A stretch of DNA of 27,556 nt from an uncultured Gammaproteobacteria bacterium (GTDB lineage Bacteria > Patescibacteriota > Patescibacteriia > UBA11705 > DATKZF01): assembly GCA_964411255.1 (NCBI GenBank), contig CAYPKD010000004.1, positions 178,147 through 205,702 of the forward strand. The letters are read 5' to 3'. Below, piece after piece: positions 11,676 to 25,955 of this stretch. Position 1 is the first letter of the stretch, and each line of letters opens with the position of its first letter. The position numbers and the translations under genes are program-made. Under the pieces are notes generated by a model. The model was not told the DNA's origin. It was given only the letters and a program-made list of their open reading frames with translations, and did not search any database.

Positions 11676-12548
11676 ATGGCTCAAGTTGATATGCACATAC
11701 ATTCGCATTTTTCAGATGGATCAGATTCTCCTACTCAAATCGTTCAAAAAGCAAAATCACTTGGATTAAAAGCAATTTGTCTGACTGACCATGACAATTA
11801 TGAAGGCTTGCCAGAATTCGTTCAGGCTTGCAGGGAACATAATATGAATTTTCTTTGCGGTATTGAAATAATGACATTTTTTCAGGGAATAAAGATTGAA
11901 ATACTGGCTTATGGCATTGATTTGCCCAGAGATGAAAAGTTAAAAGACATACTTTCTAAAAATTGGAAAGCTCATAATTTAAAAGTTCAAAAAATGCTTA
12001 ATGGATATTCTGAACATGGAATTTTTACTGCCACAGTAAACGATATTAAAAGAGCAATGGATTATAAAGGACCGTTTGCCACCAAGGCTTGGCTACGGGA
12101 ATTTAGAGTTCAGGAATTTGATGTTGAGAAAAAGCAAGCCAAACAAGAAACTGCCAAAAATGGTGTGGCTTATGCGCCATACGATCAAGATAAATTCATT
12201 ACTCCAGAAGAAGTGTTTGATTTTGTTCATGCGCTCGGCTGGAGAGCAGTTTTAGCTCATGGCGGAGTTATCAGCAAAGAAATACCTGAGTTTCAAAAGT
12301 GGACAGATTTTATTAAACTTCTTGTTTTGCAATTAAAACCGCTTGGTTTATTCGGAGTTGAAGCATATCACTACCGAAATGAAAAACAATATACTGAATT
12401 TCTTGTTCAAATGGCCCGAGAGCATGGCTTGGCAATAACTGGCGGATCTGATTATCATGGCAGATTTCAATCAAGGCAAATCGGGCAATTTGCAATCAGT
12501 TATGAAAATTTTTTGCAATTTAAAGAGCTAATAAACATAACCGCGTAA
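11676..12548 (+). CDS. PHP-domain phosphoesterase (TrpH/YciV-like; 3',5'-nucleoside bisphosphate phosphatase / RNase AM family), paralog 1
   Basis: The N-terminus MHIHSHFSDGSDSPTQIVQKAKSLGLKAICLTDHDN carries the PHP motif I HxH and motif II DHD. Later metal-ligand histidines are LAHGG and GGSDYHG. Confidence 0.8.
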   Translation: MAQVDMHIHSHFSDGSDSPTQIVQKAKSLGLKAICLTDHDNYEGLPEFVQACREHNMNFLCGIEIMTFFQGIKIEILAYGIDLPRDEKLKDILSKNWKAHNLKVQKMLNGYSEHGIFTATVNDIKRAMDYKGPFATKAWLREFRVQEFDVEKKQAKQETAKNGVAYAPYDQDKFITPEEVFDFVHALGWRAVLAHGGVISKEIPEFQKWTDFIKLLVLQLKPLGLFGVEAYHYRNEKQYTEFLVQMAREHGLAITGGSDYHGRFQSRQIGQFAISYENFLQFKELINITA

Positions 12549-12636: not shown

Positions 12637-13530
12637 ATGCCTTTTGAAGCTGATATGCATAGCCATTCATACTATTCTGATGGTTATAATTCTCCAGCTG
12701 AATTAGTCAAAACAGCAAAATCCCAAGGGTTAAAGGCAATTTGTCTGACAGATCATGATAATTTTAACGGCATACATGAATTTATCAGAGCCTGCAAATT
12801 AGCACGACTTGATTTCATCCATGCAATTGAGCTGACAACTACCTATAAAGGTGTAATCGTTCATATATTAGGCTATGGATTAGATCTGAATAATCACACT
12901 CTTAATAAAGTGGTCTTTTCTCAATGGTATGTTCATAACCTCAGAATGACTCAAATATTGAGAAAATATAGAAAAAAAAAGGTTATGGATGTTTCATTGG
13001 ATAATTTAAAAAGGTCAGTCCAATGCAAAGGCCCTTGTATGTTTGACACTTGGCTAATAGATTTTCGCATGAGAATGGCTGAAATTTCTTTTGAACAAGC
13101 AAAAAATGAAATTAGCGGTAATGGATTTGTTAATACTGAATATGATAGTGAATTATTACTCACTGCCCCTCAGGCAGTAGATCTAATTGATAATGCTGGA
13201 GGATTAGCAGTGATTGCTCATCCTGGTGAAATAAGAAGAAGGCTTGAAAACAGAGGGATTCACGTAAATTGGAATAATTTCATTCAATTATGTATTTCCA
13301 TTCTTGAAAACCAGGGTTTAGCTGGAATAGAAGTGTCTCATCCCAGAAATGATGATGAACAAACTGAATTTTTAACCCATCTGGCAGATCAACGAGGATT
13401 AATAAAATTTGGCGGGTCTGATTATCATGGAAAATTTAAATCATATCTTCCTGGTCAATGCGGCATTAGTTATAAAGCTTTTCAGCAGATTAAAGCCAAA
13501 ATTATTAAAAAAAGACCGCGAAAATCGTGA
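12637..13530 (+). CDS. PHP-domain phosphoesterase (TrpH/YciV-like), paralog 2
   Basis: MHSHSYYSDGYNSPAELVKTAKSQGLKAICLTDHDN is collinear with paralog 1, as are IAHPGE and GGSDYHG. Paralog 2 has a basic C-terminal tail, KKRPRKS. Confidence 0.8.
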   Translation: MPFEADMHSHSYYSDGYNSPAELVKTAKSQGLKAICLTDHDNFNGIHEFIRACKLARLDFIHAIELTTTYKGVIVHILGYGLDLNNHTLNKVVFSQWYVHNLRMTQILRKYRKKKVMDVSLDNLKRSVQCKGPCMFDTWLIDFRMRMAEISFEQAKNEISGNGFVNTEYDSELLLTAPQAVDLIDNAGGLAVIAHPGEIRRRLENRGIHVNWNNFIQLCISILENQGLAGIEVSHPRNDDEQTEFLTHLADQRGLIKFGGSDYHGKFKSYLPGQCGISYKAFQQIKAKIIKKRPRKS

Positions 13531-16628: not shown

Positions 16629-18128
16629 CTAATGACCAATTTTAAATATCTCAACTTTATTTGTTGCCATTACACCAAGCTTTATCCGATCATCAGATGA
16701 AGCATAAAGAGTAAATAATTTCTCACCTTTCTTTATCCTTTGACCAAAAAACGCATGCAAATGAACTCCCGCAAGCTTATCGCTTGGCGCACCAAGGTTC
16801 ATGCAAATTTCTTTAATTGCCTTGTTGTCAACAAAATTAATTTTACCCGTTTTTTTAGCATGAATTTCATATCTTTTAGCGCCAGAAGTGAAATCTTCTG
16901 AATGCTGGTCAGCTTTTCCGCCTTGCGCGATTACAATTTCATTCATTTTATCCCAGGCAGCGCCTGAAGTTAATTGCCGCATGGCAATTTTTCTGCCCTG
17001 ACCTTTTTTTGCAAACCCTTTTAATTCTAATAATTCACCTGCTAGTTTTACTGATTTTCTTTCTAAATCAAGCGGACGAAGCTCATGCCTTTGCAAAACT
17101 CTGAATACATCCCGAGCTTCCAGCGCTGGGCCAATTCCTCTGCCCAGCGGCTCTACGGCCTTTGTTTTCACTGCTTTTACCTTCATACCAAACCTTTTTC
17201 CCAAAGCAATGAATTTCTTCTCGATCATATTTGCTTTTGCCATATCAGGCACTTTGGTTGTCGGTCCGACCGGAATGTCAATAATTAAATAATCAACACC
17301 GGTCGCCACTTTTTTAGCTAAAATACTAACAATCATTTTATCATACGGCTCAAGAGCCAATGGTTTTGAAACTTTTATAATCTTATCATCAGCTGGAGCA
17401 AGGCTTAGTCCCCCGCCCCAAACCAGACAGCCATGTGTCTTTTTTACAATTTTTTTAATCTCATCCATTGAAAATGATACTGGGCAAATTACTTCCATTG
17501 TGTCTGCTGTACCTGCCGGAGATGTAATTGCTCTGGATGAAGTCTTTGGGATATATAGCCCGAGCGAAGCGATAATTGGAATAATTAACGGCGTAATTCT
17601 ATTACCTGACAGGCCGCCGACTGAATGCTTATCTACAGCTTTAACATTCAGGTTCATTTTCTCACCAGTTTCAGCCATTGCTTTTGCCACGTAATAGAGC
17701 TCGTCAAGCGAATAATCTTTTACAAAACTGGAGGCAGCATAATAAGTGGTTTCAACCGAACCTAGCACTCCGTCAACAATATCTTTAATAACCGCATAAA
17801 TTTCTTTGTATGTTACTGGTTTTCCCATTAACTTTTTATTTATTGTCTGAATAGAAAGTGGCCGGCTCATAATGCTGGCTTCAACAATATCGCCTGATTC
17901 TACTTGCACTTTTTTCCATACTTCCTTGAACAAGCCTAATTCTCCAGGTCGAACCTTTGTATTTGTCGTATCAGCGGTAACGATCGCTTTTTTATTTTTA
18001 CTCCAAATCAAATTCAACCTGTCTCCAGGATAAATTCCATAGCTTTCCGCTTCATCTTCATTTAAAACAGCGATCATTTTATCGCCTGTTGAAAAATCCA
18101 ATTTTTTGCATTTTAAATAAAACGCCAT
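16629..18128 (-). CDS. AMP phosphorylase (thymidine-phosphorylase family II enzyme with an N-terminal extension)
   Basis: At 499 aa it is longer than a classical TP. It has glycosyltransferase-family-3 core motifs (SVGGLSGNRITP, TSSRAITSPAGTADT) and a C-terminal alpha/beta domain, and it sits next to RuBisCO and the R15P isomerase. Confidence 0.8.
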   Translation of the reverse strand: MAFYLKCKKLDFSTGDKMIAVLNEDEAESYGIYPGDRLNLIWSKNKKAIVTADTTNTKVRPGELGLFKEVWKKVQVESGDIVEASIMSRPLSIQTINKKLMGKPVTYKEIYAVIKDIVDGVLGSVETTYYAASSFVKDYSLDELYYVAKAMAETGEKMNLNVKAVDKHSVGGLSGNRITPLIIPIIASLGLYIPKTSSRAITSPAGTADTMEVICPVSFSMDEIKKIVKKTHGCLVWGGGLSLAPADDKIIKVSKPLALEPYDKMIVSILAKKVATGVDYLIIDIPVGPTTKVPDMAKANMIEKKFIALGKRFGMKVKAVKTKAVEPLGRGIGPALEARDVFRVLQRHELRPLDLERKSVKLAGELLELKGFAKKGQGRKIAMRQLTSGAAWDKMNEIVIAQGGKADQHSEDFTSGAKRYEIHAKKTGKINFVDNKAIKEICMNLGAPSDKLAGVHLHAFFGQRIKKGEKLFTLYASSDDRIKLGVMATNKVEIFKIGH

Positions 18129-18140
18129 ATAGTATTTATA

Positions 18141-19406
18141 TTATTTTTTCCAAAACTGTAAAGCCCTTGCCAATTCTTCATGATCTTCTGAATATTCTTT
18201 TAATTTTACTCCACGCTCAATGGCTTGCACTGCCTGGCGGCAAGCCCTGGCGCCGGCAACTGAACCGTCTGGATGGCCGTGAATACCAGCGCCAAAATTG
18301 GCGATTAGATTTATTCCGAGTATTTCAACCAATTTAGGCAAAAGCCCTGGATGCAAACCACCAGAAGCAATTGGCAAAACCGGTTTAATTTTACTCCAAT
18401 CCTCTTTGACAATATTGTGGCTTTTCCAGTCTTCCTTCATCAATTGATTTACTGTTAAAACATCTTCCCGATCGCCCTCCATTTTACCAACTACTGTTCC
18501 AGTATGCAATTGGTCAACTCCGGCCAGTCTGGCTAATTTTGCAATAACCAGCATACTCATCCCATGTTTTTTATTTCTGGTAAATAATGCGTGTCCTGCC
18601 CGGTGGCCATGAATTATTAATCCTAAATTTTTCTTTCGTAAATATTGTACATTATCTAAACCAGTTGAAACGATATCAACCATCACGCATTTTCCACCCA
18701 ATTTTTTCACTAATTTTGCCCGTTCAAGCATTTGTTCAGGCGGTGCAGTAATATTACAGGCATATACTTTTTTCTGTTTTGTTTCTTTTTCAACTTTTTT
18801 CTTCCAATACAAAACCTTTTTCACTCTGTCTGCAAAACGGTTAAAGCTCATGTTAGTTAAATTCTCATCGTCTTTAACCAAATCAATGCCATTCAGCCAT
18901 ACAGCAGCTGACAATTTTGCCTGCTGGGCCGCAGTTAAACCTACTTTTGGTTTTATAATACTTCCTAAAATCACTCTGCCTTTTATTTTTAAAATCTTTC
19001 GGATGCCGTCAATGCCAAATGCCGGCCCCTTAAAACTGGCGCTGTATTTCACTGGAAATTCAATATCTTCCCATCTTAAATTTTTTATTAACTTCATACC
19101 GTAAATATTGCCTCCAATGCTTGATAAAAGTTGAGGAATACTGCCCCTTTCAAATAAATCTAAAGGATAAGCAACTTTTATTATCTTTTTCTTTTCATTT
19201 GCAAAAAAGACTCTGGCCTTTAATTTTTCTGCTAATTTGGGGTTCAGTGTCTGTAATTCTGTCCATGATCCAATAGAACTCTCCCCAGCAACTGCATCAG
19301 CTGCTTCCTGAAAGCTGACTCCTCTTGGCTCAACATAAAAAGTAGCGATAATTTCCTTATCCTTTTTTGGCTTGTATCCAATTTCAACAAATTTTACTAC
19401 TGACAT
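18141..19406 (-). CDS. rbcL: RuBisCO large subunit, short form II/III-like (421 aa)
   Basis: The motifs GIDLVKDDENL (GxDFxKDDE), IIKPKVGL (KPKLGL), IHGHRAGHA (HxHRAxH) and ASGGLHPG are present. No small subunit is present. Confidence 0.85.
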   Translation of the reverse strand: MSVVKFVEIGYKPKKDKEIIATFYVEPRGVSFQEAADAVAGESSIGSWTELQTLNPKLAEKLKARVFFANEKKKIIKVAYPLDLFERGSIPQLLSSIGGNIYGMKLIKNLRWEDIEFPVKYSASFKGPAFGIDGIRKILKIKGRVILGSIIKPKVGLTAAQQAKLSAAVWLNGIDLVKDDENLTNMSFNRFADRVKKVLYWKKKVEKETKQKKVYACNITAPPEQMLERAKLVKKLGGKCVMVDIVSTGLDNVQYLRKKNLGLIIHGHRAGHALFTRNKKHGMSMLVIAKLARLAGVDQLHTGTVVGKMEGDREDVLTVNQLMKEDWKSHNIVKEDWSKIKPVLPIASGGLHPGLLPKLVEILGINLIANFGAGIHGHPDGSVAGARACRQAVQAIERGVKLKEYSEDHEELARALQFWKK

Positions 19407-19410
19407 AACA

Positions 19411-19502
19411 TTGATAGTTACGAAGTTATGATGTTATGAAGTTACGTTGTTATTTAAAATATATATAACGTCGTAACTTAGTAACCTCGTAACATCATAA
19501 CG
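19411..19502. repeat. Imperfect palindrome of about 90 bp built from heptamer units (AGTTAYG on the left, CGTAACT-type on the right) around an AT-rich centre, lying between the HAD-like gene stop and the RuBisCO start
   Basis: The sequence is TTGATAGTTACGAAGTTATGATGTTATGAAGTTACGTTGTTAT-TTAAAATATATAT-AACGTCGTAACTTAGTAACCTCGTAACATCATAACG. Confidence 0.6.
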
Positions 19503-19914
19503 ATTTTATTAGTTTTACAATTTTTTCAATATCATCTAAGGCGAAGTCAACTTCATCTGTTTCATTATTTTTACTAAACAAAACTGTTTTAATTCCTACT
19601 TGTTTTGCTGGAAGCAAATTGCTAATAAGATCATCAATCATTAAACATTCTTCTGGTTTTATATTCAAATCATTTATAAATTTTTGATATGTATTTGCAT
19701 CTGTTTTACTTTGGCCTGATTCAGCGCAGGCAATGATAGGATCAAGCCCTAACTGATTTCCAATCTCTTTCACTGTGTTTGGAGATAAATTACTAATGGT
19801 TGCATTAATAATCCCTTTTGCTTTTAACTGTTCAACAATATCCTTGGCTTTAGGGTCAATCTGGCCATTTTTATAAACCACGCCATATAAATCCCAAATA
19901 ATTGCTTTAATCAT
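19495..19914 (-). CDS. Small HAD-like hydrolase domain protein (139 aa; a possible phosphatase)
   Basis: IIWDLYGVV sits at the motif-I position (DxDGx-like, with the second Asp replaced), and MIDDLISNL sits at the motif-IV position. It is short for a HAD enzyme, so the assignment is tentative. Confidence 0.45.
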   Translation of the reverse strand: MIKAIIWDLYGVVYKNGQIDPKAKDIVEQLKAKGIINATISNLSPNTVKEIGNQLGLDPIIACAESGQSKTDANTYQKFINDLNIKPEECLMIDDLISNLLPAKQVGIKTVLFSKNNETDEVDFALDDIEKIVKLIKSL

Positions 19915-20851
19915 ATTTTTTTTTCAAAAACTTATACTTCTTTGTCGTTTTCTTTGAAATATATTTTGGTTTTAATATTCCCAATTCTGTAATAAAACCT
20001 GTGATAAACCTGGCAGGAATAATATCAAATGCATAATTTATAATTTCCAATCCCTTTGGCGCTCTGGACCAAATTTCATTTGCTTTTCTTTGTTCAATTT
20101 CTAAATTTTTCAAATGTTTAGTTTCAATATCAAGCTTTAATGCCTGAGTTGCTATATATACTGGAATTTTTGCTTCACGCGCTGCTAAGGCCAGGCCTAA
20201 AGATCCTATCTTATTAACTGCATCACCGTCCAAAGTAATTGCATCACAGCCTAAAATTAATAAATCCATATCATATCCTTTGCTATACTGGCTGACAAAA
20301 AACGGACCTGCGCTGTCAACCACTTGGGTATTTTTAATATTCATTTTTAATAATTCTTTTGAAGTCGTTCTGCCCTGAAATAATGGCCTGGTTTCATTAT
20401 TAAAAACATGGATTTTTTTTCTTTTCTTTTTGGCCGCTTCTAATATACTTATTGCGGTAGAGGAATGACAATGAGTAAAGATATTATCATTATTACTAAT
20501 CAATTTCTCACCATAATCTTTAATAATTCTTTTATTTGTCATTATTTCAAATAAAAAACTGTCAATTCCTCTTTTTATTAAAACTCTTAACTTTTTTATA
20601 TCTAAATCCTGATTTTTATCTAAATGATATGAAACAAATCGTACAGCATTTTCTGCCATTGGCTCTGTTTCTCTGGCCCTGCTCAAGTAATATCCAATTT
20701 TTTTCACTCTGCTGATTAATTGACGGGGAGTTTTCAGCCTTTTCTCCTGAGAAACTTTTTTTAAGGTATTTAAAACAGCTTCAGCTATATTGGTTGCCCC
20801 CTGAATTTCAATGTTAACGATTTTTTTATAAATTTGGTCGATGTAATTCAT
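19907..20851 (-). CDS. Ribose-1,5-bisphosphate isomerase (eIF-2B alpha/beta/delta-like e2b2 family)
   Basis: An e2b2/MtnA-fold signature (GATNIAEAVL ... ILGCDAITLDGDAVNKIGS) is present. Its stop overlaps the HAD-like start by 8 nt. Confidence 0.75.
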   Translation of the reverse strand: MNYIDQIYKKIVNIEIQGATNIAEAVLNTLKKVSQEKRLKTPRQLISRVKKIGYYLSRARETEPMAENAVRFVSYHLDKNQDLDIKKLRVLIKRGIDSFLFEIMTNKRIIKDYGEKLISNNDNIFTHCHSSTAISILEAAKKKRKKIHVFNNETRPLFQGRTTSKELLKMNIKNTQVVDSAGPFFVSQYSKGYDMDLLILGCDAITLDGDAVNKIGSLGLALAAREAKIPVYIATQALKLDIETKHLKNLEIEQRKANEIWSRAPKGLEIINYAFDIIPARFITGFITELGILKPKYISKKTTKKYKFLKKKYD

Positions 20852-22352: not shown

Positions 22353-23795
22353 TTAGTTAAAATAACACAAAATTCCCTGAACAGAATGCCAAATATTTGT
22401 ATAAATTGCTAAAAGCAGCAGCAAAACTATAAAAATCAGTAATGGCCAGGATACTTTGCCTTTTGTAAATTCAACATGCTTTTTTTGAGCTAAAATTCCT
22501 TTTTGCTCTGCATTTAGGCCATTCAATGCTGCTAAAATTATGAAAAATAATATTAAACTGATTGAAAAATCAAAATTAAAGTTCATCCAGATAAAATATG
22601 CTGCTAAACTTGAAAATATTGCTAAAATTTCAATACTTTTATTTTTTAATCCCTGCCAGATTAAATGTAAAATTTTAACCCATATAAACAAATAAATTAT
22701 TAAGCCAATAAAACCAGTGTTTATAAGTACATCTAAAAACACATTATGCACCCGGTCAGAAATTCGGTCATCAATTGCCATTTCCTGCTCAGAAATTTGC
22801 CTTTCCGTGGACAAATACATGTAAGTTTCAGGGCCATAACCTAAAATCGGCCTTTGCAGGATTTTTGACCAGGCAAATTTATAATCCTGCATTCGAGTAT
22901 AGCCTGTACTCTGGCTAAATCCTTCGCTTGTTCTGGTTTTTATCAGTCCTTTATAAAAACCAACAACAATAACTATCAATACTACAAAAATTATTAAATG
23001 TTTATAATATTCTTTTTTCTTTGGAAAAAATATTATCAAGCAAATAATAAAAACAAGCATTGAGCCTGCAAATGCCAGCCAGGCGCTTCTGGTTAAAGTT
23101 AAAATTAAAGAAACAACCTGTAAAATAATTATGAAAAAAAACAGCACTTGCCAAACATTTTTTTTGCTTTTCCAGGCTAATAAAAATGTAAAAATTATTA
23201 TCATTGATAAAAACAAGCCTAAATAATTTGGATGGCCTAAAGTAGAAAATGATCGGCTAAAAACTTTATCAGCTGAAGCATAAAATGTATGCAAAGTTGG
23301 AAAATCAATTCCAAAGCTTTGCAAAATCGCATAGAGACAAACTGGTACTGACACAAAAGCTAAAATCTTTATTATTTTATAAAATTTGCTTTTTGAAATT
23401 AAATCCTTAATTAAAAAAAATAATAAAATTCCATGGCCGATTGTGAATAACCCCATCAATCTGTCATCCAGCCCTAATATACTTTCTGAAAAATGAGTGG
23501 AAAAGAACGAAGCTAATGAATACACCAGTACATATAAAATTAATAAAAATTCTAAGGAAAAAAAATTGTATTTTTTTAGTTCATTATAAATTTTAACTAA
23601 AACCTGTTTTAAATTTTTACATCTTACCAGCCAAATTATAAAAATTATTTCCACGAAAAAACGAAAAATTGTAATACTGTCAAGTTCATAGGGCATGCAT
23701 GACCATAAATTAAAAAACAGCGGCGTAATAATTAATATTGCCAATAAGATTTTAAAAGCAAGGTATTCAAATGTTTGACTGCAAATACTTTTCAT
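22353..23795 (-). CDS. O-antigen ligase / Wzy_C-like polytopic membrane protein (possible O-oligosaccharyltransferase or polymerase)
   Basis: It has about 10 TM helices and a periplasmic-loop signature LTRSAWLAFAGSMLVF (the R...SxxA pattern of WaaL/PglL/Wzy_C). Confidence 0.55.
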   Translation of the reverse strand: MKSICSQTFEYLAFKILLAILIITPLFFNLWSCMPYELDSITIFRFFVEIIFIIWLVRCKNLKQVLVKIYNELKKYNFFSLEFLLILYVLVYSLASFFSTHFSESILGLDDRLMGLFTIGHGILLFFLIKDLISKSKFYKIIKILAFVSVPVCLYAILQSFGIDFPTLHTFYASADKVFSRSFSTLGHPNYLGLFLSMIIIFTFLLAWKSKKNVWQVLFFFIIILQVVSLILTLTRSAWLAFAGSMLVFIICLIIFFPKKKEYYKHLIIFVVLIVIVVGFYKGLIKTRTSEGFSQSTGYTRMQDYKFAWSKILQRPILGYGPETYMYLSTERQISEQEMAIDDRISDRVHNVFLDVLINTGFIGLIIYLFIWVKILHLIWQGLKNKSIEILAIFSSLAAYFIWMNFNFDFSISLILFFIILAALNGLNAEQKGILAQKKHVEFTKGKVSWPLLIFIVLLLLLAIYTNIWHSVQGILCYFN

Positions 23796-23863
23796 AATTA
23801 CAACAAAAGCTTAACAGCCTTGCTTTTTCTGGCTATCAAGCTTTTTTTGAAAATTTATCAATA

Positions 23864-24136
23864 CTATTTCAAGTCTATACCTTCCCGTAATTCCAAATCT
23901 GCAGGGCCTGGCTTTACATTAGCCGGCAATTCTGGAATTTCCTTTTGTTTCAGCGGCGGATATGTCCGAATTTGCTTTTTCGGTATGGTCTTGAAGATAA
24001 AAGGATAGCCAAAGCCATAGCCTTTGCTTCTACCCACTGCGCTTAAAATACCAAAAGCCGCTGCTGCCACAGCTACAATAGCCACTGCAGTTACAACCTT
24101 TTGCTTAGTCGTAGTTTGAGTCTTTACATTTGCCAT
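23864..24136 (-). CDS. Small single-TM protein, paralog P2 (90 aa), with an Ala-rich TM helix and a Pro-rich C-terminal tail
   Basis: MANVKTQTTTKQKVVTAVAIVAVAAAAFGILSAVGRSKGYGFGYPF is 80% identical to P1 over the N-terminus and TM helix. The tail is divergent and Pro-rich. Confidence 0.6.
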   Translation of the reverse strand: MANVKTQTTTKQKVVTAVAIVAVAAAAFGILSAVGRSKGYGFGYPFIFKTIPKKQIRTYPPLKQKEIPELPANVKPGPADLELREGIDLK

Positions 24137-24171
24137 AATATTTGAATTTAATGTTAAATCTTGTATAAAAT

Positions 24172-24414
24172 CTACCTCAAGCCCTCATATTTTTGATGAG
24201 GCGGTACAAATTTGAAATCTGGGGCTGTCTTTTTTGGATTAATTGGAATTTCAGGATATGTTTTTTTCTGAATCACAAAAGGCCAGCCAAATCCATATCC
24301 TCTGCTTTTACCCACAGCAGTTAAAATCCCAAATGCTGCAGCTGCCACTGCTACAATGGCAATTGCTGTTATAACTTTTTGTTTGGTTGTGGTTTGCGTT
24401 TTTAATTTAGCCAT
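24172..24414 (-). CDS. Small single-TM protein, paralog P1 (80 aa)
   Basis: MAKLKTQTTTKQKVITAIAIVAVAAAAFGILTAVGKSRGYGFGWPF is followed by TYPEIPINPKKTAPDFKFVPPHQKY. Confidence 0.6.
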   Translation of the reverse strand: MAKLKTQTTTKQKVITAIAIVAVAAAAFGILTAVGKSRGYGFGWPFVIQKKTYPEIPINPKKTAPDFKFVPPHQKYEGLR

Positions 24415-24451
24415 AGTATTTTAGTTTAGGGTTAAAATTATTGTTTAAAAA

Positions 24452-24655
24452 CTACAAAGAAATGTCGTATTTCAAATGCGGAGGCACAATTTTCAACTCT
24501 GGCGCAGTCTTTTTTGGATTAATCGGAATTTCAGGATATGTTCTTTTCATTATTATAAAAGGTCGACTGAACGCCTGCGCCCAGTTATTGCCTGCCGCAG
24601 CCAAAACTCCCAGCACTGACGCAAATATGGCAATAATGGTAAAAACCAAAATCAT
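24452..24655 (-). CDS. Small single-TM protein, paralog P3 (67 aa from the internal ATG). The ancestral start codon appears to have mutated, ATG to ATA.
   Basis: The C-terminal tail TYPEIPINPKKTAPELKIVPPHLKY is nearly identical to P1 at the DNA level. Upstream, the in-frame translation IKSKNKTTIKQK is homologous to P1 and P2 MAKLKTQTTTKQK, but it has no ATG, GTG or TTG, and an in-frame TAA lies further upstream. Confidence 0.5.
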   Translation of the reverse strand: MILVFTIIAIFASVLGVLAAAGNNWAQAFSRPFIIMKRTYPEIPINPKKTAPELKIVPPHLKYDISL

Positions 24656-24782
24656 TTTCTGTTTGATAGTTGTTTTATTTTTAGATTTTATTATATTTTC
24701 TTTATTATTTAATTCTTTACTTTAATTTAAAATTATTTTTTTCTACCAATCAACTGATCTACCGATCTACCAACCTACCAAT

Positions 24783-25955
24783 TTAATCAATTTTATCAAA
24801 TGGAACATTTGTCCATTCTGAAATAATCTTTTTTATATCAAATGCAATCACTTCTGGTCTTTCACCATGCATTTTATCCATTTTATGTTCTTTTTCTGCT
24901 TCTTCTACTTTACTGGCTACTTTTACAATTTTTTTTCTAACTTTTTCTAATTTTTCTTTGTCCCTTTCTCTTTTTTGTTCATTTTTTAATTTATTAAGTT
25001 CGCTTAACAAATCTTTTATCTTATCTGGCGCTGCATCAACTCTTTGCCGAACCTGTGATGAAGCTTTTCCTATTAATTCAATTGCACTGTGCGGCTGCGC
25101 ATATGCCTTTAGACTTTTAGCAGCGCTTGCTTCGTCAATAACATCTATTGCTTTATCAGGCAACATTCTTTTTTTAATATATTTTTCTGATAAATTTACT
25201 GCAGCGTCAATCGCCTCATCGCTAATTTTTACTTGATGATAATCTTCATACGTTTTTTTTAGACCTTTCAAAATTTCAATGGTCATCTCAATTGTCGGCT
25301 CTTCAACTTCAATTGGCTGAAATCTGCGTTCCAAGGCTTCATCCGGCTTAATATATTTTTCAAATTCTTTGGTTGTAGTTGCACCAATTGCATGAAGCTC
25401 ACCCCTGGCCAAAGCTGGCTTTAATACGTCAGAAATATTTACAGCCCCTTCTGTACCTTTTGTCTGAACCAGCATATGTACTTCGTCAATAAATAAAATA
25501 ATATCATCCTTAGACTCAATAATTTCATTCACCAAACTTCGAATACGCTGTTCAAACTCACCCCTGTACTTTGTACCAGAAATCATGTCAGCCAAATTTA
25601 GTGATAATATCTTTTTATCTTTCAAAAGATCTGGCACATTGCCAGTTATAATTTTTAAAGCCAGTCCCTCGATCACAGCTGTTTTACCAACACCTGCATC
25701 ACCGATTAAAACCGGATTGTTCTTTGTTTTTCTGGATAAAATCTGAATTACTCTGTCTGTTTCTTTATCTCTTCCAATTATTGGCGTTAATTCCCCGTTC
25801 TTTGCTTTTTCTGTCAGATCTTCTGTAAATAAATTTAAAGTTGATTTTTTTGATAATAATTTTCTACCAAAAAGCTTGTCCCGATAATACCATAAAATAA
25901 AAATCAAGATGAGAAATGCCAGAATATATTGCCAATTATTTAGTAGAAAATTCAT
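24783..25955 (-). CDS. Membrane-anchored AAA+ ATPase made of a single ClpA/ClpB-type D1 module plus a coiled-coil (M-domain-like) segment. It has no N-domain and no D2.
   Basis: An N-terminal TM helix (NWQYILAFLILIFILWYY) is followed by Walker A GDAGVGKTA, Walker B IILFIDEVH, sensor-1 IGATTT, the Arg finger ALERRFQ, and the Clp D1 landmarks LIGDAGVGKTAVIEGLA and LDKAIDVIDEA. It ends at ISEWTNVPFDKID, exactly where D2 would begin (compare VSRWTGIPV), and a stop codon follows. Confidence 0.7.
   Translation of the reverse strand: MNFLLNNWQYILAFLILIFILWYYRDKLFGRKLLSKKSTLNLFTEDLTEKAKNGELTPIIGRDKETDRVIQILSRKTKNNPVLIGDAGVGKTAVIEGLALKIITGNVPDLLKDKKILSLNLADMISGTKYRGEFEQRIRSLVNEIIESKDDIILFIDEVHMLVQTKGTEGAVNISDVLKPALARGELHAIGATTTKEFEKYIKPDEALERRFQPIEVEEPTIEMTIEILKGLKKTYEDYHQVKISDEAIDAAVNLSEKYIKKRMLPDKAIDVIDEASAAKSLKAYAQPHSAIELIGKASSQVRQRVDAAPDKIKDLLSELNKLKNEQKRERDKEKLEKVRKKIVKVASKVEEAEKEHKMDKMHGERPEVIAFDIKKIISEWTNVPFDKID

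What the first reader, a model, noticed from the sequence alone, without database searches (positions are those of the whole stretch)
23864..24700. Three tandem paralogs of an Ala-rich mini-TM protein, and the third has lost its ATG start (ATG to ATA) while keeping a near-identical tail
P1 and P2 share MA(K/N)(L/V)KTQTTTKQKV followed by the TM helix. In P3 the homologous upstream codons (ATA AAA TCT AAA AAT AAA ACA ACT ATC AAA CAG AAA) are still in frame but have no canonical start. The first ATG sits at the beginning of the TM helix. The 3' 100 nt of P1 and P3 are almost identical at the DNA level, which points to recent duplication or gene conversion. This looks like a paralog family under turnover, which is typical of surface-exposed or phase-variable proteins.
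Basis: seen in the sequence. Interest (0 to 1): 0.5.

Follow-up and report, generated by a model that had tools for sequence, protein, structure and literature searches.

The report
Small membrane-protein trio beside glycan ligase
Three neighbouring genes for tiny single-helix membrane proteins are real and conserved in a small group of Patescibacteria, always between a membrane-tethered AAA ATPase gene and an O-antigen-ligase-like gene; one copy has lost its original start codon and gained a new ATG 13 codons downstream.

Summary
Three minus-strand paralogs exist: A (24452-24655, or to 24694), B (24172-24414) and C (23864-24136). They are real genes. Remote relatives share an unannotated N-terminal module (KQKV, a TM helix, then GKxRGFGFGYPF). 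Every informative locus has the order AAA ATPase, 1-3 family members, Wzy_C gene. A sister species (L097) has the A ortholog with an intact ATG and MAKLKTKTTIKQKV, so ATG to ATA is a real, lineage-specific loss. Five assemblies are identical, so it is not a sequencing error. The new ATG (24655) replaces the family-invariant Val of KQKV. The body of A is still under purifying selection (omega 0.19). The shared tail links A with the middle copy B, at 90% over 48 nt, not about 100 nt. Copy number is 3 here and 2 in the sister species, whose second gene is a B-head/C-tail fusion, which points to recombination between paralogs. Selection is strongly purifying (0 nonsynonymous against 23 synonymous changes for C), and nothing supports phase variation. 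Function is inferred only: bitopic partners or acceptors of the adjacent Wzy_C enzyme. Their tails carry a significantly enriched K/R-Thr motif.

The parts
24452..24655 (-). Copy A as called from the first ATG (67 aa): MILVFTIIAIFASVLGVLAAAGNNWAQAFSRPF... The family motif is degenerate and the tail is TYPEIPINPKKTAPELKIVPPHLKYDISL.
   Evidence: ORF. JGI gene callers call it at 67 aa, and three other assemblies do not call it at all. Omega against ortholog A' is 0.185 over codons 14-80.
24656..24694 (-). Former N-terminal 13 codons of A, still in frame (IIKSKNKTTIKQK). ATA at 24694-24692 is the position of the ancestral ATG. All 8 A-lineage substitutions fall in codons 1-6 and none in codons 7-13.
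   Evidence: Alignment with A' (L097:441-683, ATG GCT AAA TTA AAA ACG...) and with B.
24172..24414 (-). Copy B (80 aa): canonical module with an A-like tail.
   Evidence: 93 bits against the module profile. Its head has 0 nonsynonymous and 12 synonymous differences from the head of L097 C'.
23864..24136 (-). Copy C (90 aa): canonical module with its own Pro/Lys-rich tail. It lies directly upstream of the Wzy_C gene.
   Evidence: Codons 32-90 have 0 nonsynonymous and 23 synonymous differences from L097 C'.
24497..24544 (-). 48-nt patch of the A tail that is 89.6% identical to B (24217-24264). This is more similar than A is to its ortholog A' (79%), so it is a candidate short gene-conversion tract.
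24783..25955 (-). Upstream neighbour: N-terminally membrane-tethered ClpB/ClpA D1-like AAA+ ATPase (390 aa). It is the conserved first gene of the cassette.
   Evidence: Pfam AAA and AAA_lid_9. NCBIfam ClpB partial match. Synteny.
22353..23795 (-). Downstream neighbour: Wzy_C (O-antigen-ligase-like) polytopic membrane protein (480 aa). It is the conserved last gene of the cassette.
   Evidence: PF04932 at 83.7 bits against a cut-off of 31.7. R236..L240, R288, R301 and H350..G361 are invariant in six orthologs. Synteny.
24742..24782 (-). 8-nt tandem repeat (TTGGTAGA, about 5 copies) in the AAA-A spacer, partly kept in the sister species. It may be a regulatory element; its role was not tested.

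Best explanation
A, B and C are three paralogous genes for very small single-pass membrane proteins. Each has a Lys/Thr-rich N-terminal tail ending in KQKV, one TM helix, a juxtamembrane motif G(K/R)xxG(F/Y)GFG(Y/W)PF, and then a short disordered Pro/Lys/Thr-rich tail. They belong to a rare, unannotated family confined to one clade of Patescibacteria. There the family always occupies the slot between a membrane-tethered ClpB-D1-like AAA+ ATPase gene and a Wzy_C (O-antigen-ligase / O-oligosaccharyltransferase superfamily) gene.

Shown:
- The family and its synteny are conserved.
- B and C are under very strong purifying selection.
- Copy A lost its ancestral ATG (now ATA at 24694-24692) in the window lineage only.
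- In the same lineage the invariant Val14 codon became ATG (24655).
- The body of A continues to evolve under purifying selection, at the same rate as its intact ortholog.
- Copy number differs between sister species (3 against 2) through recombination between paralogs.

Inferred:
- A is now translated mainly from the new ATG, giving a 67-aa form that lacks the conserved cytoplasmic tail. A small share may still start at the near-cognate ATA.
- The proteins sit N-in/C-out.
- They act with the adjacent Wzy_C enzyme, most likely as membrane-anchored acceptors or partners, with the recurrent (K/R)-Thr sites in their tails as candidate modification sites. This is analogous to pilin genes that sit directly upstream of tfpO/pilO/tfpM.

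Confidence by step: real family and cassette 0.95; lineage-specific start loss 0.95; ATG-24655 as the main start 0.6; Wzy_C partner or acceptor role 0.3.
For: Family:
- An exhaustive HMM search finds relatives P0004-P0012 that share the module while their tails differ.
- A profile search finds 10 proteins in 5.8 billion.
- No Pfam or NCBIfam model matches.

Synteny:
- The order AAA, 1-3 members, Wzy_C holds in every locus with enough flank: L086, L089, L092, L093, L094, L097, L100, L101.
- Spacers in relatives are only 3-12 nt.
- More distant Patescibacteria with the AAA gene but no adjacent Wzy_C also lack the family.

Selection:
- C against C', codons 32-90: 0 nonsynonymous, 23 synonymous.
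- B against the C' head: 0 nonsynonymous, 12 synonymous.
- A against A', codons 14-80: omega 0.185.
- The neighbouring Wzy_C gene has omega 0.13 and dS 0.87.

Start loss:
- A' in L097 reads ATG GCT AAA TTA AAA ACG ... GTA, where A reads ATA ATA AAA TCT AAA AAT ... ATG.
- Polarised with B, 8 of 9 differences in codons 1-13 are A-derived and all lie in codons 1-6. In codons 14-80 the derived amino-acid changes are symmetric, 6 in A and 6 in A' (read).
- Five identical assemblies exclude a sequencing error.
- The genome rarely uses Shine-Dalgarno sequences, so an A-rich leader followed by ATG is the normal start context here.
- ATA initiates at only about 0.02-3% of AUG in E. coli (bioRxiv 10.1101/063800).

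Topology and shape:
- AlphaFold predicts one helix at residues 10-37 and a disordered remainder.
- Long relatives carry Cys-rich domains with sub-threshold hits to the acidic double-disulfide repeat model. That implies an extracytoplasmic C-terminus.

Link to Wzy_C:
- The Wzy_C orthologs keep invariant Arg and His positions.
- Wzy_C O-OTases are usually encoded next to their small N-terminally anchored acceptor (PMC3643930: 21 of 31; PMC9829042).
- (K/R)-Thr is enriched in the tails: 30 observed against 13.2 +/- 3.1 expected, with 0 of 5000 shuffles reaching 30. K/R-Ser is not enriched and Thr-K/R is depleted.
Against: - There is no experimental or expression data, so the start site of A is undetermined.
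- Codons 7-13 upstream of the new ATG have no A-lineage change and keep every Lys. This fits continued translation from ATA as well as it fits a constrained leader.
- The functional link to Wzy_C rests on gene order and analogy only. No glycan-synthesis genes are nearby in the window.
- The window copies have no Cys loop and no C-terminal Ser/Thr, unlike TfpO/TfpM substrates.
- Charged residues flank the helix on both sides, so the topology of the short members is not settled by sequence.
- The direction of the copy-number change (3 to 2 or 2 to 3) rests on about 23 synonymous sites.
- The A-B conversion patch is 5 differences against 10, which is not significant on its own.
Confidence: 0.6

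Rival explanations
1. Copy A is still translated from the near-cognate ATA (24694 or 24691). It would give the full 79-80-aa protein with its Lys-rich tail, at a much lower level. On this reading, ATG to ATA is a way of turning down expression rather than a change of protein form. It is not exclusive with use of the downstream ATG.
For: - The 13 upstream codons remain in frame.
- All five Lys residues and the KTTIKQK stretch are unchanged, and there is no A-lineage change in codons 7-13. All 8 changes fall in 18 of the 39 sites, which has p about 0.002 under uniform drift (my arithmetic).
- ATG to ATA start mutations tune expression in Listeria rsbW (PMC13068326).
- ATA supports about 1-2% initiation in E. 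coli.
Against: - Four of the first six codons changed in A, whereas A' and B are identical at all 18 of these nucleotides. That suggests relaxed constraint on the extreme N-terminus.
- A canonical ATG was created by two substitutions at an otherwise invariant Val codon.
- AT-biased mutation alone would tend to preserve AAA codons.
- The conserved 21 nt could equally be a translation-initiation region for the new ATG.
Confidence: 0.25
2. Copy A is a decaying pseudogene in the window species, and the remaining open frame is a leftover.
For: - The ancestral start is lost.
- The conserved GYGFGWPF motif is degenerate, and A scores 33 bits against the module profile.
- Three of five gene callers do not call it.
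Against: - The motif degeneration is shared with the intact ortholog A' (ENWAQAFSRPF), so it predates the start loss.
- The ORF has no stop or frameshift.
- Omega is 0.185 overall and 0.07 in the tail.
- Derived amino-acid changes in codons 14-80 are symmetric between A and A' (6 each, read).
- A new in-frame ATG sits exactly at the helix start.
Confidence: 0.12
3. One reading: a recently duplicated, fast-turnover family of surface-exposed or phase-variable proteins.
For: - Copy number varies among relatives (1, 2 or 3).
- The genes show a mosaic recombination history.
- The tails are probably extracytoplasmic.
Against: - Paralog divergence is old (dS of 1 or more).
- Orthologs show extreme purifying selection rather than diversification.
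- No repeat tracts lie in the coding regions or at the starts.
- Five assemblies are identical.
Confidence: 0.08
4. The N-terminal module is a cleaved Sec-type signal peptide. The products would then be small secreted Pro/Lys-rich peptides starting near GK(S/A)RG(F/Y)GFG..., for example signalling or antimicrobial peptides, rather than membrane-anchored partners of Wzy_C.
For: - The layout is a positively charged n-region, a hydrophobic core, then small residues at -3 and -1 (A/S/T-x-G35) before the motif, in nearly all members.
- The mature parts are cationic and disordered.
Against: - The hydrophobic stretch is about 21 residues and the predicted helix runs from 10 to 37. From general knowledge this is long for a signal peptide, though possible in monoderms.
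- Ordinary signal peptides are not conserved across proteins with unrelated mature parts, yet KQKV and the helix are.
- No cleavage predictor was available.
Confidence: 0.2

Closest known systems
Pilin genes paired with Wzy_C-type O-oligosaccharyltransferase genes (pilA-tfpO/pilO, pilin-tfpM, comP-pglL)
   Same: A small protein with an N-terminal hydrophobic anchor and an extracytoplasmic remainder is encoded directly upstream of, and on the same strand as, a Wzy_C-domain membrane enzyme (PMC3643930, PMC9829042). Several remote family members end in a disulfide-type Cys loop followed by KKT(E), which resembles the disulfide loop and terminal Ser/Thr of TfpO/TfpM substrates.
   Different: These are not pilins. 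There is no G/F-T-L-I-E class III signal, no Glu5 and no pilin domain. The window copies have no Cys and no C-terminal Ser/Thr. An AAA+ ATPase gene is part of the cassette. Glycosylation is not demonstrated.
Tripartite sorting signals (LPXTG/sortase, PEP-CTERM/exosortase, PGF-CTERM/archaeosortase)
   Same: A short conserved motif lies at the outer membrane face, next to a TM helix, next to a basic cluster on the cytoplasmic side. This unit is attached to unrelated passenger regions of very different length.
   Different: Here the unit is N-terminal and in mirror order (basic tail, helix, motif). No sortase-like gene is nearby. The partial hit of the Wzy_C neighbour to the exosortase-associated ligase model TIGR03097 is far below its cut-off (30.7 against 188 bits).
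Start-codon down-tuning by ATG to ATA/ATT (for example Listeria rsbW)
   Same: It is the same single-base change at an initiation codon, fixed in a lineage (PMC13068326).
   Different: Here a new canonical ATG arose 13 codons downstream, so the likely result is an N-terminally truncated protein rather than only less protein.
Tandem gene families reshaped by unequal crossing-over and gene conversion
   Same: Copy number is 3 against 2 in sister species. The two-copy species carries a head/tail fusion of two of the three genes. A and B share a short patch more similar than A is to its own ortholog.
   Different: The copies are old and each is under strong purifying selection. This is not a rapidly diversifying contingency family.

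Membership tests
Type IV pilin / class III signal peptide proteins | Leader ending in Gly, followed by (F/M)-T-L-x-E and a hydrophobic helix; N_methyl (PF07963) match | tested here: not met
   No Pfam match for A, B, C or nine relatives at E up to 1. The sequences read MAKLKTQTTTKQKV-ITAIAIV..., with no G-F-T-L-I-E and no Glu at +5.
Any curated protein family (Pfam-A, NCBIfam) | Score above the curated cut-off for the module or the whole protein | tested here: not met
   No hits above threshold. The only source-given name is 'hypothetical protein'.
Wzy_C / O-antigen ligase superfamily (the neighbouring gene, not the trio) | PF04932 above the gathering score; conserved Arg and His of the periplasmic loops | tested here: met
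   83.7 bits against 31.7, covering profile positions 2-149 of 149. R236-x3-L240, R288, R301 and H350-x10-G361 are invariant in six orthologs. Matching these to the R-X3-L and H-X10-G ligase motifs is from my own recollection.
Substrate of a Wzy_C O-oligosaccharyltransferase | Glycan attached to Ser/Thr of the protein, dependent on the adjacent enzyme | not testable with these tools
   Only indirect support exists: conserved adjacency and enriched K/R-Thr sites in the tails.
Phase-variable (contingency) locus | Simple-sequence tract or invertible element in or before the gene, with length or orientation variants between samples | tested here: not met
   TRF finds no tract in the ORFs or at the starts, only an 8-nt repeat 50-90 nt upstream of A. 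There are no inverted repeats. Five assemblies are identical.
Pseudogene (copy A) | Disrupted frame or no usable start, with relaxed selection | tested here: not met
   The frame is intact with ATG at codon 14. Omega is 0.185. Derived changes are symmetric against the intact ortholog. Only the ancestral start is lost.
Cleaved Sec signal peptide | n-h-c regions with small residues at -3 and -1, and removal by signal peptidase I | tested here: inconclusive
   A/S/T-x-G precedes the motif in most members. However, the hydrophobic stretch is about 21 residues and the predicted helix is 28 residues. No predictor or experiment was available.
Acidic double-disulfide repeat proteins (NF033662), long relatives only | Score above the 41-bit cut-off | tested here: not met
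   P0006, P0010 and P0011 score 25.6-28.1 bits, which is sub-threshold. The window copies have no Cys.

The most novel reading that the evidence does not exclude
The KQKV, TM helix and GxxRG(F/Y)GFG(Y/W)PF module may be a dedicated N-terminal anchoring and recognition signal. On this reading it presents K/R-Thr-rich extracytoplasmic tails, or in relatives whole Cys-rich domains, to the adjacent Wzy_C enzyme. The conserved cytoplasmic tail would be handled by the membrane-tethered AAA+ ATPase. That would make this a non-pilin protein-glycosylation or surface-attachment cassette specific to a Patescibacteria clade. In the window species the start-codon shift would strip copy A of the cytoplasmic tail. 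The positive-inside rule then predicts an altered or inverted topology, which could make A a regulator or decoy.
Probability: 0.2. Interest if true: 0.65.

Novelty: new variant of a known kind. Interest (0 to 1): 0.4.

Why it matters
Patescibacteria (CPR) have tiny genomes and depend on cell-surface contact with hosts, yet their envelope biology is almost unknown. This locus defines an unannotated small-protein family locked into a three-part cassette with an AAA+ ATPase and a Wzy_C enzyme. It therefore gives a concrete, testable candidate for how these cells decorate or build their surface. The start-codon shift is a clean natural example of N-terminal remodelling of a small membrane protein, with an intact ortholog available for comparison. 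The locus also shows that gene callers treat such genes inconsistently: copy A is missing from three of five public annotations. The evolutionary phenomena themselves (start-codon shift, unequal crossing-over) are well known.

Tried and rejected
- The word-indexed protein search with B found only B and C. The exhaustive HMM search was needed to find relatives.
- P0003 (3816 aa, E 4e-21) was rejected. It is the sum of 12 weak matches of 3-13 bits to a repeat in an unrelated giant protein.
- L103 and L104 from the metagenome scan were rejected as chance matches of the 9-residue pattern in high-GC, unrelated DNA.
- 80 genome loci fetched through the AAA protein gave no family member. Among the closest Patescibacteria loci (L006-L016) there was also no adjacent Wzy_C.
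- A Shine-Dalgarno analysis to pick the start of A was uninformative. Only about 3 of 35 genes have a GGAGG-like site, and B and C have none.
- The promoter/terminator scan was at chance level: 4 promoter-like sites found against 4.8 expected. One -10-like site ending at 24704 would place a transcript start next to the ATA, but I give it no weight.
- Rfam found nothing credible in 23700-24900.
- The PDB sequence search with the Wzy_C protein gave no hit.
- AlphaFold gave only a TM helix and a disordered tail, so I did not run a fold search.
- Literature searches for a described Patescibacteria Wzy_C/small-protein system found nothing relevant.
- An alternative genetic code was considered and dropped, because all neighbouring genes are long intact ORFs under table 11.
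Full report
**Naming.** I name the copies in transcription order on the minus strand.
- A runs from 24694 (ATA) or 24655 (ATG) to 24452.
- B is 24414-24172 (80 aa, MAKLK...).
- C is 24136-23864 (90 aa, MANVK...).

**1. The observation.**
- A profile of the three copies hits only these three places in the 27.5-kb window, with E 1e-38 to 1e-49.
- B and C share MA(K/N)(L/V)KTQTTTKQKV, an Ala-rich helix, and G(K/R)S(R/K)GYGFG(W/Y)PF.
- In A the codons upstream of the first ATG are in frame and homologous (IIKSKNKTTIKQK), with no ATG/GTG/TTG. An in-frame TAA lies 8 codons further up.
- Five assemblies from JGI, ENA and Logan are 100% identical over 23800-24800. The ATA is therefore not a sequencing error.

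Two details of the finding need correction.
- The ancestral ATG aligns with the first ATA (24694-24692).
- The shared tail links A to the middle copy B. Identity is 89.6% over 48 nt, but only 76% over the last 93 nt.

**2. The genes are real and belong to a rare, unannotated family.**
- The word-indexed search found only B and C.
- The exhaustive HMM search found true relatives of 81-260 aa, P0004-P0012. One hit, P0003, is a repeat artefact.
- All true relatives share an N-terminal module: a Lys/Thr-rich tail ending in invariant K-Q-K-V, a helix of about 21 residues, and (I/M)G(K/R)(A/S)xG(F/Y)GFG(Y/W)P(F/V).
- After the module the sequences diverge. Some have short Pro/Lys/Thr tails. Some have a ...MLPAY...C-x14-C...KKTE tail. 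Others carry domains of about 150 aa that are Cys-rich and score below threshold against the acidic double-disulfide repeat model.
- No Pfam or NCBIfam model covers the module.
- A profile search of 5.8 billion clustered proteins returns only 10 members.
- AlphaFold with the family alignment gives one helix (residues 10-37) and a disordered remainder, with pLDDT 61.

**3. Conserved cassette.**
- In every locus with enough flank, the family sits between a membrane-tethered ClpB-D1-like AAA+ gene and a Wzy_C gene, usually followed by RNase J.
- This holds for the window, L097, L086, L089, L092, L093, L094, L100 and L101.
- Copy number is 1 in L086, 2 in L089 and L100 (one long and one short member), and 3 in the window.
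- Spacers in relatives are only 3-12 nt, which fits co-transcription.
- More distant Patescibacteria keep the AAA gene at 45-49% identity but have no adjacent Wzy_C. They also lack the family.
- The Wzy_C protein scores 83.7 bits against a cut-off of 31.7.
- It keeps invariant R236-x3-L240, R288, R301 and H350-x10-G361 across six orthologs. The link to published ligase motifs is from memory. PMC3643930 notes two Arg and one His as the functionally important Wzy_C residues.

**4. The sister species settles the history.**
- L097 (JGI Ga0180437_10013574) comes from a sister species. Its Wzy_C is 81% identical in protein, with dS about 0.87, and the AAA tail gives dS about 0.96.
- It has two genes in the slot.
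- A' (L097:441-683) is the ortholog of A. It has an intact start: ATG GCT AAA TTA AAA ACG AAA ACA ACT ATC AAG CAG AAA GTA, which reads MAKLKTKTTIKQKV.
- A therefore lost the ATG in its own lineage. The new ATG at 24655 replaces the otherwise invariant Val14 (GTA to ATG, two substitutions, possibly through GTG).
- Polarised with B, 8 of the 9 differences in codons 1-13 arose in A and all lie in codons 1-6. The first 18 nt of A' and B are identical. Codons 7-13 show no change in A. If changes were spread evenly over the 39 sites, this has p about 0.002 (my arithmetic).
- In codons 14-80, omega for A against A' is 0.185, and 0.07 in the tail.
- Derived amino-acid changes in codons 14-80 are symmetric: 6 in A, 6 in A' and 4 unresolved (read). 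The body of A therefore shows no sign of decay.
- The degenerate motif (NNWAQAFSRPF in A, ENWAQAFSRPF in A') is shared by both species, so it predates the start loss.
- Only these two species have an A-type copy in the databases.

**5. Copy-number change and mosaicism.**
- The second gene of L097, C', equals B in codons 1-31 (0 nonsynonymous and 12 synonymous differences, 87% nt identity). It equals C in codons 32-90 (0 nonsynonymous and 23 synonymous differences).
- Its head is only 80% identical to the head of C. The spacer before it matches the window's A-B spacer.
- The simplest reading is a three-copy ancestor, with a B/C fusion by unequal crossing-over in the L097 lineage.
- The reverse (duplication in the window lineage) is less likely, because the B and C heads are at least as diverged (pS 0.65) as B and C' (pS 0.51). 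That comparison rests on about 23 synonymous sites.
- Within the window, the A-B tail patch (43 of 48 identical) is closer than A is to A' (38 of 48). Identity then drops to about 62%. This suggests a short conversion tract but is not significant on its own.
- C' occurs in two independent assemblies, so a chimeric assembly is unlikely.

**6. Where does A start?**
- The genome hardly uses Shine-Dalgarno sites. Only about 3 of 35 genes have one, and B and C have none. An RBS therefore cannot decide the question.
- For ATG-24655:
  - It is a canonical codon created at an invariant position.
  - The first six codons have drifted towards AT.
  - ATA supports only about 0.02-3% of AUG initiation in E. 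coli.
- For ATA:
  - The frame is retained.
  - All Lys residues and KTTIKQK are preserved.
  - ATG to ATA is a documented way to lower expression.
- I favour ATG-24655 as the main start (about 0.6), with possible minor ATA initiation.
- The 67-aa form would lack the conserved cytoplasmic tail. It would have positive charges only after the helix (R44, K50, R51), so the positive-inside rule predicts altered topology. This last point is inference.

**7. Function (inferred).**
- Cys-rich passenger domains in long relatives imply N-in/C-out topology.
- Wzy_C enzymes include WaaL ligases and the O-oligosaccharyltransferases PglL, TfpO/PilO, TfpM and PglS. The latter are typically encoded next to their small, N-terminally anchored acceptor (PMC3643930: 21 of 31 next to pilin genes; PMC9829042: pilin immediately upstream of tfpM).
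- The trio are not pilins (no class III signal).
- Their tails show a directional K/R-Thr motif.
  - In a less redundant set, 30 cases are observed against 13.2 +/- 3.1 expected, and 0 of 5000 shuffles reach 30.
  - K/R-Ser is not enriched, and Thr-K/R is depleted (5 against 13.2).
  - In A, B, C and A', every tail Thr follows K or R.
- I therefore propose that they are membrane-anchored partners or acceptors of the Wzy_C enzyme (about 0.3).
- The main alternative is that the module is a cleaved signal peptide and the products are secreted peptides (about 0.2).
- No glycan-synthesis genes are nearby in the window, which neither helps nor excludes this proposal.

**8. Verdict.**
- The finding is real and its core claim, a lost ATG in one of three paralogs, is correct.
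These are old copies under strong constraint, in a conserved cassette, with occasional recombination between them.
- The evolutionary phenomena are ordinary.
- The protein family and the AAA/small-protein/Wzy_C cassette appear undescribed and are moderately interesting for CPR envelope biology.

Noticed in passing
window 24742-24782 (minus strand), and L097:362-395: An 8-nt tandem repeat (TTGGTAGA, about 5 copies; GGTAG-N3-GGTAG is expected 0.2 times by chance) starts right after the AAA stop codon, in the spacer before copy A. Two GGTAG units and one GATAG unit are kept in the sister species. It may be a protein-binding or regulatory element.
   Followed up: partly
window 16629-20851 (minus strand): A cluster of an AMP-phosphorylase-like gene (Glycos_transf_3/PYNP_C), the RuBisCO large subunit, a HAD hydrolase and an IF-2B-family (ribose-1,5-bisphosphate isomerase-like) gene. 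From general knowledge this is the nucleotide-salvage RuBisCO pathway known from CPR bacteria and archaea.
   Followed up: no
Tails of A, B and C (window 23864-24560) and of relatives P0004-P0017: Thr residues in the tails are preferentially preceded by Lys or Arg (KKT, KT, RT), often with Pro within 1-3 residues. The reverse order is depleted. This could be a modification or recognition sequon.
   Followed up: partly
L097:719-991: The sister species carries a single gene that is a B-head (codons 1-31) joined to a C-body (codons 32-90), in place of the separate B and C genes. This is a natural fusion and deletion between tandem paralogs.
   Followed up: yes
window 11676-12548 and 12637-13530 (plus strand): Two tandem PHP-domain paralogs. 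Both have strong GGAGG-type ribosome-binding sites, unlike almost all other genes in the window, which have none.
   Followed up: no
L093:226-1179; L089:4207-4989; L100:2980-3678: In remoter relatives, the first position after the AAA gene holds a longer bitopic protein. In L089 and L100 it carries the module plus a Cys-rich domain. In L093 it has a similar MQTVSKTG... start and helix but lacks KQKV and the GFGFG motif. The first slot therefore seems to be the variable one, as copy A is here.
   Followed up: partly
L003, L004, L005 (same sequence as window 24452-24655): Copy A is not called as a gene in three of the five public assemblies that carry an identical sequence. Small genes with shifted starts are annotated inconsistently.
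   Followed up: yes
window 24783-25955 (minus strand): The AAA+ protein is a ClpB/ClpA first nucleotide-binding domain only, with an N-terminal TM helix and a coiled-coil C-terminus. It has no N-domain and no second ATPase ring. It is widespread in Patescibacteria and similar to Chloroflexota ClpB segments.
   Followed up: partly
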